From: Microbacterium sp.
GTDB lineage: Bacteria; Actinomycetota; Actinomycetes; Actinomycetales; Microbacteriaceae
Assembly: GCF_031178525.1 (NCBI RefSeq)
Contig: NZ_JAPSJA010000001.1
Span: 1 to 59,874 of the forward strand
Length of the DNA stretch: 59,874 bases
Reading direction: 5' to 3'
The position numbers and the translations under genes are program-made. This document shows, piece after piece, positions 9,778-29,314 of the stretch. The notes below the pieces were generated by a model. It made no database searches, was not told the origin of the DNA, and saw nothing but the letters and a program-made list of their open reading frames with translations. Within the stretch, counting starts at the first letter, position 1, and every line of letters begins with the position of its first letter.

Positions 9778-9811
9778 GCGGGCGTATTGTTGGACGCAAT
9801 CCAGAAATACG
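9778..9811 (+). promoter_or_regulatory. lipBA -10 box (TATTGT) overlapped by dyad operator CGTATTGTTGGA-N5-TCCAGAAATACG
   Basis: Arms 10/12 complementary; 24/27 identical to 24208-24234. Confidence 0.7.
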
Positions 9812-9822
9812 GAGGGATCCGC

Positions 9823-10467
9823 ATGCTCGATGTCATCCCGGTCGGCCTGGCGCCGGCCTACGTGCCGTACCTCGATGCGTGGGAGCTGCAGCGTCGCGTC
9901 CACGCCGACGTGCGGGCGGGCGAGCGCCCCGACACGCTGCTGCTTCTCGAGCACGAGGCGGTCTACACGGCGGGCGTGCGCACGCAGCCCGAGGACCGAC
10001 CGCGCGACGGCACGCCGGTGCTCGACGTGGACCGCGGGGGTCGCATCACGTGGCACGGTCCGGGCCAGCTGGTCGGATACCCGATCGTCGCGCTGCCGGA
10101 GCCGAACGACGTCGTGGGATATGTGCGGCGCCTCGAACGCGCCCTGATCGCCGCGCTCGCCGAGGCGCGCATCGCAGGTATGCAGATCGCGGGGCGCAGC
10201 GGGGTGTGGATCGAGCGCGCCGGATCCTCCCCCGCCAAGGTGGCCGCCATCGGCGTGCGCGTCGCGGGCGGCGTGACGATGCACGGCTTCGCGATCAACT
10301 GCGACAACGCGCTCGATGCCTTCGGCGCCATCGTGCCGTGCGGGATCCGTGACGCGGGCGTCACGACGATCAGCGAGGTGCGCGGTGAGCGCGTGTCGCC
10401 GCGCGACGTCGTCGGCGTCGTCGCGGCCGCGCTGACGGCGGCATTCGAGACGGCCATCGCGGCTTGA
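9823..10467 (+). CDS. lipB: Lipoyl(octanoyl) transferase LipB
   Basis: [55 protein letters not shown] before ATG 9823. Confidence 0.96.
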
Positions 10468-10522
10468 TGCCTCGACCCCTACCGGACCCGACCCGACCCG
10501 ACGACTCGAACGAGGGAACGAC

Positions 10523-25913: not shown

Positions 25914-26967
25914 GGCGTCGCGCTCCGCGTCGAACGACCGGCCGACGCGAGGGAGACGAGACCCGGCGCGGATCCGGTCCGTCGCGCGCTGGATCGCGGG
26001 GCGCGTCGGATCCGCGCTGCTCGTCGTCTGGATCGTCGCGACGGTCGTCTTCTTCGCGCTGCGCGCGTCGGGCGATCCGCTCGAGGCGATCCTGGGCGGC
26101 CCGGGGTCACAGGCCGGTCCGGAGGCGGTCGCCCAGGCCCGTGAGGAGTACGGACTCGATCAGCCGCTGATCCTGCAGTACCTGACGCAGCTATGGCGCG
26201 TGGCGACGTTCCAGCTCGGCGACTCGTACGCGCGACGGCAGCCGGTCTCCGACCTGATCGCGGCCCAGCTCCCCGGGACGCTGCTGCTCGCCGCGCTCGC
26301 CCTGCTGCTCGCCTGGACGCTCGCGCTGGCGGGGTCCACGATCGCCGCCACGGCCCGCGGTCCGGTCGGCCGCGCGGTGGTCGCTGGCGTGCGCGGGCTC
26401 GAGCTCGTCGCGACCGTGATGCCGCAGTTCTGGCTCGGCGCCGTGCTGATCCTGGTGTTCGCGGCCTCGCTGCGGATCCTCCCCGCCACCAGCGGCGGCG
26501 GCGATCCGGCGGGACTGATCCTGCCTGTCGTGACGTTGGCGATCCCGATCGCGGGCTTCCTCGCGCAGCTGTCGCGCGATGCGCTGCGGGAAGCGGATCG
26601 CGCGCCGTTCGCCACCACCGCCCGATCCCGCGGGGCGAGCGAGTCGCGCGTGCTGCTGCACCACACGCTGCGGCACGCCAGTCTTCCCGCGCTGTCGCTG
26701 TCGGGCTGGGCGTTCGGGCACCTGCTGAGCGGTGCGGTCGTCGTGGAGTCGCTGTTCGCCCGCCCGGGACTCGGGCGCCTGCTGCTCGATGCCGCGATGA
26801 GCCGCGACGTGCCCGTCGTGATCGGCTCGGTCGTGGTCGTCGCTGTGCTGTACGTCCTCGTCGTCACGGTCGTCGACGCTGTCGAGCTGCTCGTCGACCC
26901 GCGTCTGCGCCGCGCGCGCACGGCGCACGCCGTCGAACGGACGCCCGAGCTGGCGGTGGGCTCGTGA
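25894..26967 (+). CDS. ABC transporter permease (OppB/DppB-like); start uncertain
   Basis: YGLDQPL, LGDSY, PQFWLG, TARSRG, GAVVVESLFARPGLG. Confidence 0.9.
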   Translation: MRASPAEASRSASNDRPTRGRRDPARIRSVARWIAGRVGSALLVVWIVATVVFFALRASGDPLEAILGGPGSQAGPEAVAQAREEYGLDQPLILQYLTQLWRVATFQLGDSYARRQPVSDLIAAQLPGTLLLAALALLLAWTLALAGSTIAATARGPVGRAVVAGVRGLELVATVMPQFWLGAVLILVFAASLRILPATSGGGDPAGLILPVVTLAIPIAGFLAQLSRDALREADRAPFATTARSRGASESRVLLHHTLRHASLPALSLSGWAFGHLLSGAVVVESLFARPGLGRLLLDAAMSRDVPVVIGSVVVVAVLYVLVVTVVDAVELLVDPRLRRARTAHAVERTPELAVGS

Positions 26968-27797
26968 CGGGCGTCGACGCGCCGGCGCGCCGCGCCCTGC
27001 GGACGCTCGGGCCGGGGGGCGTCGTCGCGGCGATCGCGCTCATCGCGATCCTGGTCGCGGTGTTCGCGCCGTCCGTGCTCGCCCCGGGCGATCCGCTCGG
27101 GATCGCGCCCGCGGAGGCGTTCTCGCCCCCGTCCTGGGCGCACCCCTTCGGGACGGACGAGTCGGGCCGCGACCTGTACACGCGTGTGATCCACGGGGCA
27201 GCCGCGTCGGCGGGCATCGGCCTGGCGGCGACGGGGATCGGCATCGCGGCCGGCCTCGTCCTCGGCTTCGCGGGGGCCCTGGGTCCGCGCTGGCTGGATG
27301 CGGCGATCGCGCGCGTCGTGGAGGTGCTGTTCGCACTGCCGACGCTCGTGCTCGCGCTGCTGCTGGTCGCGGTGCTCGGACCGGGCACCCAGGCGTCGAT
27401 CCTCGCGATCGGCGTCGCGACCGCGCCGGGCTACGCGCGCATCCTGCGCGCCCGGGTGCGCGGCGTCGCGCGCAGCGACTACGTCGCCTACGCCCGCCAT
27501 GAGGGGGCAGGCCCGCTCACGGTGTTCGTGCGGCACATCGCGCCCAACACGCTGTGGCCGCTCGTCGCGACGGCCACGCTCGGAGTGGGTCAGGCGATCG
27601 TCTGGGTCTCGGCGTTGAGCTTCCTCGGGCTGGGCGCACTGCCGCCCTCGCCCGAGTGGGGCGCGATGCTCAACGCGGGACGCGTGTACATCACGACGGC
27701 GTGGTGGATGACCGTGCTGCCGGGACTTGCGATCGTCACGACGGCGACCGTGCTCACCGTGCTCGGACGCCGCGCCTCGGGAGCGGGAGCGTCGTGA
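26964..27797 (+). CDS. ABC transporter permease (OppC/DppC-like)
   Basis: HPFGTDESGRD, LSFLGLG..PPSPEWGAML. Confidence 0.92.
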   Translation: MTGVDAPARRALRTLGPGGVVAAIALIAILVAVFAPSVLAPGDPLGIAPAEAFSPPSWAHPFGTDESGRDLYTRVIHGAAASAGIGLAATGIGIAAGLVLGFAGALGPRWLDAAIARVVEVLFALPTLVLALLLVAVLGPGTQASILAIGVATAPGYARILRARVRGVARSDYVAYARHEGAGPLTVFVRHIAPNTLWPLVATATLGVGQAIVWVSALSFLGLGALPPSPEWGAMLNAGRVYITTAWWMTVLPGLAIVTTATVLTVLGRRASGAGAS

Positions 27798-29314
27798 GCC
27801 TGCTGCGCATCCGGAACCTGTCCGTCACGATGCCCGGCGGCGTCGCCGCGCTGCGCGGCGTGGATCTCGACGTCGCGCCGGGCGAGGTCCTCGCGATCGT
27901 GGGCGAATCGGGCGCCGGGAAGTCCGTGCTGGCCCGCACGATCCTCGGCCTGTCCCGGCGCGACGGTGGGCGCGTGTCCGCCGACGCGTTCGAGCTGGGC
28001 GGGCGCGATGCGCGTCGCCTTCCGGAGCGGCACTGGCGCGCCGTGCGCGGCGGCGGCGTCTCGCTCGTGCTGCAGGACGCGCTGCAGTCGCTCGATCCCC
28101 TGCGCACGATCGGGGCGGAGGTGGGCGAGGCGCTGGCGGTGCGGCGCGTGCCGGCGAGCGAGCGCCGCTCCCGCGTGCTGGATGCGCTCGACGCGGCGGG
28201 CCTTCCGCTCGGCGGGCCGCAGCGCTCCGAGGCCCGCGCGCGCCTGCGCCAGCGCCCGGGAGAGCTGTCGGGCGGCATGCGGCAGCGCGCGCTCATCGCC
28301 TCGGCGATCGTCGCGGGAGCCCCTCTCATCGTGGCGGACGAGCCCACCACGGCACTCGACGCCACCACGGCCGCCCGCGTCCTCGGTCTCCTGGGCCGCC
28401 TCCGTGACGAGGGCACGGGGCTCATCCTCATCAGCCACGATCTCGCGGCGGTCGCGCGCATCGCCGACCGCATCGCGGTGCTCGACGCCGGTCTCATCGT
28501 CGAGAGCGGCCCTGCTTCCCGCCTCCTCTCCCGTCCCGAGCACCCCGTCACCCGGGCGCTGCTGGCGGCCGTCCCCCACGGTGCGAAGCCGCTTCCTTCG
28601 TCTGTGCGGGGCGAACCCGTGCTGGCCGCGCGTGGGCTCGTTCGCCGCTACCCCGGCCCGGGTGGCACCGTCGCAGCCGTCGCCGACGTCGACATCGCGG
28701 TCCGCCGGGGCGAGGTCCTCGGCATCGTGGGCGAATCCGGATCCGGCAAGTCGACGCTCGCCCGGCTGCTGCTCGGTCTCGAGCGGCCGGACGCCGGCGA
28801 CCTGACACGTCGATCGGACGTGCGCGCCCGGCTCGTCCCGCAGGATCCGCTGGGGGCCTTCGACCCGCGACACAGCGTCGAGCGCATCCTGCGCCACGCT
28901 CGCCGCGGCGACGCGCCAGCGCCCGGCGCGCTACTCGCACGCGTCGGACTCGATGCCGCCATGCTGCGTCGCAGGCCCGCGTCGCTCTCGGGCGGTCAGC
29001 GCCAGCGCGTCGCGATCGCTCGCGCCCTCGCGGCGCGACCGGACGTGCTCGTGTGCGACGAGCCGGTGTCTGCCCTGGACGTCACGACCCAGGCCGGCAT
29101 CCTCGACCTCCTGCTCGACCTGCAGCGCCAAGAGGAGCTCACGATCGTGTTCATCTCCCACGACCTCGCCGTCGTCCGCCGCGTCAGCGACCGCGTCGCC
29201 GTGATGCGCCACGGCCGCATCGTGGAGGAGGGCGATACCGAGGCGGTCTTCTCCCGCCCCGCCCACGCGTTCACGCGCGAGCTGGTCGCGGCCAGCCTCA
29301 GTCCGCGCTCGTGA
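27794..29314 (+). CDS. ABC transporter ATP-binding protein with two fused NBDs
   Basis: GESGAGKS/LSGGMRQR/DEPT and GESGSGKST/LSGGQRQR/DEPV. Confidence 0.94.
   Translation: MSLLRIRNLSVTMPGGVAALRGVDLDVAPGEVLAIVGESGAGKSVLARTILGLSRRDGGRVSADAFELGGRDARRLPERHWRAVRGGGVSLVLQDALQSLDPLRTIGAEVGEALAVRRVPASERRSRVLDALDAAGLPLGGPQRSEARARLRQRPGELSGGMRQRALIASAIVAGAPLIVADEPTTALDATTAARVLGLLGRLRDEGTGLILISHDLAAVARIADRIAVLDAGLIVESGPASRLLSRPEHPVTRALLAAVPHGAKPLPSSVRGEPVLAARGLVRRYPGPGGTVAAVADVDIAVRRGEVLGIVGESGSGKSTLARLLLGLERPDAGDLTRRSDVRARLVPQDPLGAFDPRHSVERILRHARRGDAPAPGALLARVGLDAAMLRRRPASLSGGQRQRVAIARALAARPDVLVCDEPVSALDVTTQAGILDLLLDLQRQEELTIVFISHDLAVVRRVSDRVAVMRHGRIVEEGDTEAVFSRPAHAFTRELVAASLSPRS

What the first reader, a model, noticed from the sequence alone, without database searches (positions are those of the whole stretch)
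9778..29314. Candidate TetR-controlled lipoate regulon: lipB-lipA and a family-5 ABC importer share a 27-bp promoter/operator
Seen: GCGGGCGTATTGTTGGACGCAATCCAG (9778-9804, before lipB) and GCGGGCGTATTCTTGGACGCAGTCCGG (24208-24234, before the ABC substrate-binding gene) match at 24/27 positions although 14.4 kb apart. Each has a TAnnnT -10 box followed directly by the dyad TGGAC-N3-RTCC over the expected transcription start, which is classic repressor geometry. The motif differs from the PaaR operator (ACCGA-N4-TCGGT), and a second, otherwise unassigned TetR gene (11730-12290) sits next to lipA. Established: TetR repressors bind short dyads near -10/+1, and LipB/LipA synthesise lipoyl groups de novo. 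Inference: this TetR co-represses synthesis and uptake, and the Opp/Nik-like ABC system imports lipoate, lipoamide, lipoyl-peptides, octanoate or an organosulfur precursor. I know of no described lipoate importer of this class or TetR lipoate sensor, but I could not search the literature.
Basis: partly seen in the sequence, partly recalled or inferred. Interest (0 to 1): 0.85.

Follow-up and report, generated by a model that had tools for sequence, protein, structure and literature searches.

The report
Lipoate repressor and predicted lipoate importers
A short DNA palindrome sits in front of both the lipoic-acid synthesis genes and an ABC importer in Microbacterium and its relatives and travels with one TetR protein, which likely represses both, and the importer likely takes up lipoic acid, because nearly all related species lacking the synthesis gene carry such an importer.

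Summary
Observation confirmed: the two 27-mers match at 24/27 and are unique in the genome. The conserved element is a 21-bp dyad (TTGTTGGAC-N3-RTCCAACAA) that overlaps the -10-like hexamer. In Microbacterium loci it lies before lipB in 20 of 20 and before this binding-protein gene (type A) in 28 of 31, against 0 of 400 random windows. The TetR is usually divergent from lipB or type A across the dyad. Outside the genus the dyad precedes lipB/lipA in 7 of 10 TetR-positive and 0 of 19 TetR-negative genomes. It also precedes alternative importers: a second family-5 ABC (type B), a MetQ-like ABC lacking Asn229, a BioY paralogue and an MFS. All 12 near-complete lipA-less Microbacterium keep the TetR, LplA and an importer (11 with the dyad), against 28 of 53 lipA-positive genomes. 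A second family shows the same trend. Best reading: a BioQ-like, lipoate-specific TetR regulon with lipoate (or lipoyl-peptide) importers. Binding, effector and substrate are inferred, not measured. panD and bioY in some regulons leave a broader acyl-cofactor reading open. Ten paper searches found no description.

The parts
9787..9807 (+). Operator 1: 21-bp dyad TTGTTGGAC-GCA-ATCCAGAAA, overlapping the -10-like hexamer TATTGT (9785-9790) and the likely transcription start of lipB-lipA
   Evidence: dyad-only score 27.5 bits vs 99th percentile 0.5 in 400 random windows
9823..10467 (+). lipB, octanoyltransferase
   Evidence: NF010925 304 bits, cut-off 155
10523..11524 (+). lipA, lipoyl synthase; only copy found in the assembly
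   Evidence: TIGR00510 above cut-off; single tblastn hit
11730..12290 (-). TetR-family regulator, predicted cognate repressor (here flipped, convergent with lipA, with no dyad in front of it)
   Evidence: PF00440; weak MftR model, 81.6 vs cut-off 224.9; own upstream score -18.5; synteny
12353..23685 (.). paa (phenylacetate catabolism) cluster with its own TetR (PaaR-like, 16141-16767) and operator; an insertion between tetR and the importer, not part of the regulon
   Evidence: seen at this position in 3 of the 31 relatives mapped
24217..24237 (+). Operator 2: dyad TTCTTGGAC-GCA-GTCCGGTTA, overlapping the -10-like hexamer TATTCT (24215-24220)
   Evidence: dyad-only score 15.9 bits
24276..25913 (+). 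Family-5 substrate-binding lipoprotein (type A), predicted to bind lipoate or a lipoyl-bearing ligand
   Evidence: PF00496; below cut-off for TIGR04028, NikA, Opp and DppA models; model pLDDT 92; PDB matches only 19-28% identical
25894..26967 (+). ABC permease B
   Evidence: PF00528 and PF19300
26964..27797 (+). ABC permease C
   Evidence: Opp/NikC-type models and PF00528 on the ORF ending at 27797; start read from sequence
27794..29314 (+). ABC ATPase with two nucleotide-binding domains
   Evidence: two matched stretches to Dpp/Nik ATPase models; 506 aa

Best explanation
The two sites are copies of one conserved palindrome that the neighbouring TetR likely binds to repress both lipoate synthesis (lipB-lipA) and an ABC importer that likely takes up lipoate or a lipoyl-bearing molecule. 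Shown: the dyad, its position over the -10-like hexamer, its conservation before lipB and before the importer, its co-occurrence with this TetR family, and the enrichment of importers in lipA-less genomes, all of which keep LplA where tested. Inferred mechanism: the TetR dimer sits over the -10/+1 region (for type B, just upstream of the -10) and blocks RNA polymerase when lipoylation is sufficient. On shortage it lets go, synthesis and uptake rise together, and the circularly permuted LplA (encoded elsewhere, no dyad found) attaches imported lipoate to the 2-oxoacid dehydrogenases. Different lineages use interchangeable importers under the same operator: family-5 type A (this window), family-5 type B, a MetQ-like ABC, an MHS-like MFS and possibly a BioY paralogue. 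The effector is unknown. An acyl-CoA or a lipoyl derivative is my best guess, because the nearest characterised structural relatives (MftR, Thermus FadR) bind acyl-CoAs.
For: (1) Dyad-only symmetric PWM on loci selected by the binding protein, not by the motif: lipB 20/20, type A 28/31, tetR 18/27. Controls: ffh 1/27 (the divergent-from-lipB case), ftsY 0/25, permease 0/30, lipA 0/21, glpK 0/14, random windows 0/400. One of the three type-A misses is a mis-called start with a site seen. Type A keeps its own dyad even directly behind lipA. (2) In TetR-selected loci, all 22 Microbacterium loci with lipB nearby have a site. (3) The tetR gene is divergent from lipB or from type A across the dyad in many rearrangements, including Georgenia and Beutenbergiaceae records. 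(4) Outside the genus, a site precedes lipB or lipA in 7 of 10 TetR-positive genomes (one degenerate), 0 of 19 TetR-negative (2 of them with the lipB upstream region short or missing) and 1 of 6 untested (borderline, 8.8). G622 has type A, no TetR match and no dyad. (5) lipA was not found in 12 of 349 near-complete Microbacterium. All 12 keep the TetR, LplA and at least one importer, 11 with a dyad, vs 28 of 53 lipA-positive genomes (Fisher p 0.002). Type A alone: 4/12 vs 27/337 (p 0.015). (6) Replicate in family f18: 5 of 9 type-A-positive genomes lack lipA, in five genera, vs 1 of 20 type-A-negative (p 0.005). (7) lipA loss needs 9-10 changes on an ffh tree, 3 forced by strong branches. (8) Types A and B never co-occur in the 80-genome set (0 of 7 A genomes have B; B in 36 of 80). 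(9) The MetQ-like protein keeps Arg144, Asn141 and Tyr69 but replaces Asn229 and Asn202 by Leu/Val and Trp/Leu in 7 of 7, while the genome's two other MetQ paralogues keep both Asn. Its ATPase is about 234-259 aa and so lacks MetN's C-terminal domain. N229A lowers methionine binding and the C2 domain binds methionine (PMC6233128, passages).
Against: No binding, expression or transport data exist here. Kin are not independent, so the p-values overstate. The 28/53 baseline is a lower bound, because BioY-type and MFS importers were found later and not counted (G017, counted as importer-less, has a dyad-bearing bioY). G319 lacks lipA and its type-B-like protein (53% identical) has no dyad. G691 (93% complete, 440 contigs) lacks both lipA and type A; other importers were not searched there. 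Three TetR-positive Microbacteriaceae have no site before lipB or lipA. The dyad also precedes panD in 3 genomes strongly and 1 weakly and a solitary bioY in 4 of 10 looked at, which a purely lipoate-specific regulon does not predict. lplA carries no site at the PWM threshold in 14 relatives or in this genome. An alternative LipS1/S2 route in lipA-less genomes was not tested. Types A and B share only about 35% identity and no obvious common pocket motif.
Confidence: 0.68

Rival explanations
1. The TetR controls supply of several acyl-metabolism cofactors (lipoate, CoA through PanD, biotin through BioY), sensing a downstream acyl-CoA, and this ABC system imports one of the other cofactors (pantothenate, pantetheine or biotin) instead of lipoate.
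For: Strong dyads before panD in G137, G184, G122 and a weak one in G264. Dyads before a solitary bioY in G199, G334, G137, G017. MftR, the nearest characterised relative, binds long-chain acyl-CoAs (PMC8728441, abstract and passages).
Against: panC shows no complementary pattern: present in 2 of 5 importer-positive and 3 of 5 importer-negative genomes, and G002 and G012 lack both panC and the three ABC types. Biotin uptake has its own bioYMN operon with a separate TetR and TGAAC-N3-GTTCA sites. The importer tracks loss of lipA. The regulatory half of this rival is compatible with the best explanation; only the substrate differs.
Confidence: 0.14
2. It is a small sulfur or methionine regulon (McbR-like logic): the importers bring in methionine, cysteine derivatives or other organosulfur to feed LipA's SAM and Fe-S demand.
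For: One alternative importer is MetNIQ-like. The best, sub-threshold NCBIfam match of types A and B is TIGR04028, a family I recall being linked to sulfur-scavenging monooxygenases. An Ohr-like gene is divergent from the MetQ-like operon in several genomes.
Against: Only two sites exist in this genome and none lies before cys or met genes. A sulfur donor cannot help species that lack LipA, yet those are the ones that keep the importer. Methionine-binding Asn residues are lost in the MetQ-like protein.
Confidence: 0.07
3. The dyad is real but is read by another, unlinked regulator; the TetR is only a syntenic neighbour of ffh.
For: In this genome the TetR is flipped and has no dyad in front of it. 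In most Microbacterium it stays next to ffh even when lipBA and the importer are gone. Three TetR-positive genomes lack lipB/lipA sites.
Against: Outside the genus tetR is away from ffh but still faces type A (or an MFS gene) across the dyad, and lipB/lipA sites appear in 0 of 19 TetR-negative genomes.
Confidence: 0.06
4. The ABC system is an ordinary peptide or nickel importer that shares regulation by proximity.
For: Database names are generic peptide/nickel; top PDB sequence hits are NikA.
Against: All specific models are far below cut-off. NikA His416, Arg137, Trp398, Tyr402 and DppA Asp408, Arg355 are not conserved (about 25% identity, so the alignment is uncertain, and residue roles other than His416 are recalled). 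The importer keeps its own dyad when moved away from lipBA, e.g. G050 and G310.
Confidence: 0.05

Closest known systems
BioQ (TetR repressor of biotin synthesis and bioY uptake in Corynebacterium and Mycobacterium; operator TGAAC-N3-GTTCA; PMC3398298 and PMC5640590, passages read)
   Same: TetR family; one operator before both synthesis and uptake genes of a sulfur-containing acyl cofactor; two 5-bp half-sites around N3; retained in auxotrophs.
   Different: Core is TGGAC-N3-RTCCA with longer conserved arms; targets are lipBA and ABC/MFS importers; a separate BioQ-like TetR with TGAAC sites sits at bioYMN in the same genus; no entry named BioQ among the listed PDB hits.
MftR (mycofactocin regulator, acyl-CoA-responsive; PMC8728441)
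   Same: Nearest characterised relative by sequence and fold (8x0a, E 5e-17 to the profile, TM 0.66-0.68); represses a cofactor biosynthesis operon.
   Different: 81.6 bits vs cut-off 224.9; operator T-N2-GGCA-N5-TGCC-N2-A differs; no mft genes in the neighbourhoods mapped.
CRP control of lipBA in Shewanella (PMC4398509, passages read)
   Same: Transcriptional repression of lipBA.
   Different: CRP is a global regulator; that paper contrasts it with pathway-specific biotin regulators and calls lipoate gene control poorly understood (2015). Here the regulon is small and includes uptake.
Family-5 ABC importers NikABCDE, DppABCDF and TIGR04028
   Same: Fold and operon architecture (TM 0.7-0.8).
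   Different: 19-28% identity, below all specific cut-offs, key ligand residues not conserved.
LipT, a predicted ECF S-component for lipoate (recalled from Rodionov et al. 2009; paper not held; nothing seen)
   Same: Lipoate uptake predicted from genomic context.
   Different: Unrelated transporter class and organisms; no dedicated repressor attached, as far as I recall.

Membership tests
TetR/AcrR family | N-terminal TetR HTH and all-helical C-terminal domain | tested here: met
   PF00440 50.6 bits; all-helical model pLDDT 94; all listed fold hits are TetR-type regulators
TetR repressor-operator pair | Binds a palindrome in target promoters, often divergent from its own gene | tested here: inconclusive
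   Palindrome, divergence and co-occurrence shown; binding itself not measurable here
BioQ | Operator TGAAC-N3-GTTCA | tested here: not met
   Core is TGGAC-N3-RTCCA, G at core position 3 in 89% of 224 distinct sites; BioQ motif from PMC3398298
BioQ | Located with and controlling bio synthesis or bioYMN genes | tested here: not met
   bioYMN loci carry another TetR and TGAAC sites (L589, L591); only a solitary bioY paralogue has this dyad, in 4 of 10
MftR (TIGR03968) | Score above the equivalog cut-off | tested here: not met
   81.6 vs 224.9
MftR (TIGR03968) | Released by long-chain acyl-CoA | not testable with these tools
   needs EMSA or ITC
Family-5 substrate-binding proteins | SBP_bac_5 domain, lipoprotein signal, three-domain fold | tested here: met
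   PF00496 265.6 bits; signal ending ATAC; fold matches
NikA nickel-binding protein | TIGR02294 cut-off and His416 | tested here: not met
   198 vs 393 bits; His416 aligns to a conserved Pro
DppA dipeptide-binding protein | NF043070 cut-off and Asp408/Arg355 terminus-binding pair (roles recalled) | tested here: not met
   91 vs 1005 bits; Asp408 aligns to Thr, Arg355 to Phe/Ile at low identity
TIGR04028 SBP | Score above cut-off | tested here: not met
   210.6 vs 468.5
MetQ methionine-binding protein (for the alternative importer in relatives) | Asn229 and Asn202 in the pocket; MetN with C-terminal C2 domain | tested here: not met
   0 of 7 keep either Asn; ATPase about 234-259 aa vs 343; NF008285 145 vs 374 bits
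Vitamin importer by comparative genomics | Co-regulated with the biosynthesis genes | tested here: met
   shared dyad, lipB 20/20 and type A 28/31, type B 27/28
Vitamin importer by comparative genomics | Present in species that lack the biosynthesis genes but keep the salvage enzyme | tested here: met
   12/12 vs 28/53, and 5/9 vs 1/20 in a second family; two exceptions noted (G319 no dyad, G691)
Vitamin importer by comparative genomics | Direct ligand binding and uptake | not testable with these tools
   no lipoate ligand option in the complex predictor; needs ITC and uptake assays

The most novel reading that the evidence does not exclude
This is a dedicated lipoate repressor and a whole set of dedicated bacterial lipoate importers: at least four unrelated transporter types (two family-5 ABCs, a MetQ-like ABC that has traded its amino-binding asparagines for hydrophobic residues, an MFS and a BioY paralogue) converged on lipoate under one operator. 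The TetR reads an acyl-CoA as co-repressor and so coordinates lipoate, CoA and biotin supply. The MetQ-like subfamily may mark lipoate uptake in distant lipoate auxotrophs as well.
Probability: 0.35. Interest if true: 0.88.

Novelty: new variant of a known kind. Interest (0 to 1): 0.76.

Why it matters
Lipoate salvage enzymes are well known, but the papers I could reach name no pathway-specific lipoate regulator and no characterised bacterial lipoate importer. This locus supplies named candidates for both, an operator sequence, natural auxotrophs to test them in, and several independent transporter solutions, so two old gaps in cofactor metabolism become directly testable. Thousands of proteins now labelled 'peptide/nickel' or 'methionine' binding proteins could be re-annotated (2,089 proteins at E <= 1e-100 among the 7,997 candidates scored). 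It would also point to lipoate cross-feeding among common soil and plant actinobacteria and give a possible lipoate-responsive genetic switch.

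Tried and rejected
Short-pattern counts as evidence: TTGGACNNNRTCC is at chance level in the window, and the genus-wide pattern count (341 of 401) is matched by frequent hits of the reversed control, so only position relative to genes was used. 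Of the 30 loci returned, 22 lay before lipB, 2 before type A alone, 1 before a MetN-like gene and 5 elsewhere. Of 40 further pattern hits fetched, about half had no strong PWM site or no plausible target and were dropped as chance. A sigma-70 scan found no promoter or terminator. No RNA holder was listed; this is no evidence either way. Pantothenate as substrate: no complementary pattern in 10 genomes. The paa cluster as part of the regulon: rejected, it has its own operator and is an insertion. No complex prediction was run, because lipoate is not an available ligand and a TetR homodimer would be uninformative. Literature: 10 full-text searches showed no lipoate TetR or lipoate ABC importer; searches returned 0 papers. 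Three papers sought by recalled id were not held. The library lacks most subscription journals and RegPrecise could not be searched, so a prior prediction cannot be excluded. No supplements were read. The scan's own earlier findings gave nothing.

Full report
Observation. The two 27-mers are present at 9778-9804 and 24208-24234 and match at 24 of 27 positions. No other place in the 2.85-Mb, 87%-complete assembly exceeds 21/27, and a PWM finds no third site above 12.3 bits. The first lies 18 bp before lipB (9823), the second 41 bp before a family-5 binding-protein gene (24276). lipB and lipA pass their NCBIfam cut-offs. The TetR at 11730-12290 has no specific family. The stretch between is a paa cluster with its own TetR and ACCGA-N4-TCGGT sites. 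The closest named TetR relatives (74-82%) are Microbacterium records. An LplA of the actinobacterial type is encoded on another contig; PMC10332631 (passages) describes circularly permuted LplA as nearly exclusive to Actinomycetota.

The element. From 224 distinct sites the consensus is TATTGTTGGAC-N3-RTCCAACAA, a 21-25-bp palindrome with a variable three-base centre (these sites were picked by the PWM itself, so the logo is not an independent test). Its left end doubles as a TAnnnT hexamer, and the A/G bias at the first base of the right arm falls where a start site would be expected (inference). To separate operator from promoter I scored only the symmetric 21-bp dyad in loci chosen by the binding protein: 20 of 20 lipB, 28 of 31 type-A and 18 of 27 tetR upstream regions score at least 8 bits. 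Controls were 1 of 27 ffh, 0 of 25 ftsY, 0 of 30 permease, 0 of 21 lipA and 0 of 400 random windows. The PWM was trained on 24 motif-selected sites, 6 of them from genomes that recur in this test set.

The regulator. The usual Microbacterium layout is ffh, tetR, dyad, lipB, lipA, with tetR divergent from lipB; all 22 TetR-selected Microbacterium loci with lipB nearby carry a site. Type A was found in 34 of 401 genomes and sits in this block in several arrangements: behind lipA, divergent from lipB with two dyads, or replacing lipBA opposite tetR. The paa cluster appears at this position in 3 of 31 relatives mapped. In a draw across the order the TetR profile matched 36 of 301 genomes; 6 of these are weak, distant matches that I did not follow. 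Outside the genus tetR faces type A across the same dyad, as in Georgenia and Beutenbergiaceae records. There a dyad precedes lipB or lipA in 7 of 10 TetR-positive genomes, 0 of 19 TetR-negative genomes and 1 of 6 untested ones; for 13 of the 19, TetR-negative status is inferred from the family tally. The three TetR-positive misses are all one Microbacteriaceae genus. In this window tetR is flipped and has no dyad of its own.

Other targets. The same dyad precedes a second family-5 ABC near valS (type B, about 35% identical to type A; in 36 of 80 genomes; dyad variant in 27 of 28 scorable loci, placed upstream of a separate -10). It also precedes a MetNIQ-like ABC (7 of 80 genomes), an MHS-like MFS facing tetR in five metagenome loci, a solitary bioY paralogue in 4 of 10 loci examined, and panD in three genomes strongly and one weakly. 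panD itself is rare: one full match in 10 genomes. Biotin uptake has a separate BioQ-like system with TGAAC-N3-GTTCA sites (motif from PMC3398298, passage).

The substrate. lipA was not found in 15 of 401 genomes, 12 of them near-complete. All 12 keep the TetR and LplA (LplA in 50 of 50 genomes tested). All 12 have an importer: type A in four, type B in six, MetQ-like in four, two with both. Eleven have a dyad in front of it; G319 does not. Among 53 near-complete lipA-positive genomes of the same set 28 have one (p 0.002). Types B and MetQ-like were defined before the lipA-less list was known, but bioY and MFS types were not counted, so the baseline is a lower bound. In family f18, 5 of 9 type-A genomes lack lipA, in five genera, against 1 of 20 others. 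Ten lipA-less genomes checked have a single LplA/LipB-family gene of the LplA type, so lipB is gone too. On a 75-row ffh tree lipA loss needs 9-10 changes, 3 forced by strong branches. Octanoate or sulfur donors cannot serve a cell without LipA (established pathway logic; a LipS1/S2 route was not tested), which leaves lipoate or a lipoyl-bearing molecule. panC shows no such pattern in 10 genomes.

Protein clues. Type A folds as a family-5 binding protein (pLDDT 92) with only 19-28% identity to solved structures. It lacks NikA His416 and the DppA Asp408/Arg355 pair in low-identity alignments. The MetQ-like protein keeps Arg144 but has Leu/Val at Asn229 and Trp/Leu at Asn202 in 7 of 7, unlike the two other MetQ paralogues of this genome, and its ATPase lacks the C-terminal regulatory domain. 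PMC6233128 (passages) reports that N229A cuts D-methionine affinity about 20-fold and that methionine binds the C2 domain. That this fits a carboxylate ligand without an amino group is my inference; the roles of Arg144 and Asn202 are recalled. The TetR model (pLDDT 94) is closest to SCO0337, a Rhodococcus TetR, MftR and Thermus FadR. MftR binds C12-C18 acyl-CoAs (PMC8728441, abstract and passages), so an acyl-type effector is plausible but untested.

What is known. It works like BioQ, which controls biotin synthesis and uptake (PMC5640590, passages), but fails the BioQ and MftR membership tests. PMC4398509 (passages) describes CRP control of lipBA and no pathway-specific lipoate regulator. PMC5049849 (passages) discusses salvage from lipoyl-peptides without naming an importer in the passages shown. 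PMC11582611, PMC8416018 and bioRxiv 10.1101/2023.05.04.539371 (passages) added nothing on this system. Ten searches found no description of this regulon (listed under Tried and rejected); the library is incomplete, and a predicted ECF-type LipT is recalled only. Database names for these proteins are generic.

Verdict. A real, conserved TetR-linked operator joins lipoate synthesis to uptake (about 0.9 for the regulon, about 0.75 for lipoate as substrate given the regulon, 0.68 together). It is a new variant of the vitamin-regulon kind, applied to a cofactor for which I found neither a dedicated repressor nor a characterised importer in the papers searched. Interest 0.76.

Noticed in passing
window 12290-12420: The exact PaaR-type operator (12353-12366) lies in the divergent gap between the lipoate-linked tetR and the first paa gene, 63 bp upstream of tetR's start, so PaaR might also influence tetR in this lineage.
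   Followed up: no
L293:1069-2064, L302:1093-2067: Some orthologues of the TetR carry a C-terminal glyoxalase/VOC domain (about 330 aa); function unknown.
   Followed up: partly
L178:3701-4510 vs PDB 4ntl: The best PDB match of the MetQ-like protein (4ntl, 'Lipoprotein, YaeC family', E 1.3e-43) shares the YALQ/FALQ and YP/WP motifs in place of MetQ's asparagines. I recall 4ntl as an Enterococcus faecalis protein and that species as a lipoate auxotroph; neither was checked.
   Followed up: no
L172, L183, L188, L229, L260, L567, L573, L574: An Ohr/OsmC-like gene is divergent from the MetNIQ-like operon across the dyad. Ohr enzymes use lipoylated proteins as reductant (recalled), so it may be a further regulon member.
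   Followed up: partly
L561, L566, L593, L596: A solitary BioY paralogue next to an ABC ATPase gene carries the lipoate-type dyad in four genomes, separate from the BioQ-type bioYMN operon; a candidate lipoate S-component.
   Followed up: partly
L589:750-1399, L591:686-1366: A BioQ-like TetR divergent from bioYMN with tandem TGAAC-N3-GTTCA sites exists in Microbacterium.
   Followed up: partly
L169-L171, L581: panD is rare in the genus, sits in different neighbourhoods, and carries the dyad where it stands alone; in G007 it lies inside the panBC operon without one.
   Followed up: partly
L456, L458, L459, L475, L487: Metagenome loci in which the TetR faces an MHS-like MFS gene across the dyad, between valS and ileS, the same slot used by type B and MetQ-like importers.
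   Followed up: partly
window 29298-29800 and 23714-24184: A conserved 166-aa hypothetical gene next to ftsY flanks the block in nearly all Microbacterium, and a 156-aa lipoprotein-like ORF precedes operator 2; neither matches Pfam.
   Followed up: no
G483, G538, G634, G610 (L547-L554): In four lipA-less f18 genomes lplA lies 13-23 kb from the tetR-importer block, with unrelated conserved genes between; probably plain synteny.
   Followed up: partly
G084, G118, G263, G310: These genomes have lipA but not at the ffh-tetR locus; location and operator status were not examined.
   Followed up: no
G370:C87:2960-4087: lplA appears in two pieces in this 82%-complete lipA-less assembly, possibly an assembly error.
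   Followed up: no
G000:C345 and C29: The window's own genome has two partial bioY matches at contig ends, so their upstream regions could not be scored.
   Followed up: partly
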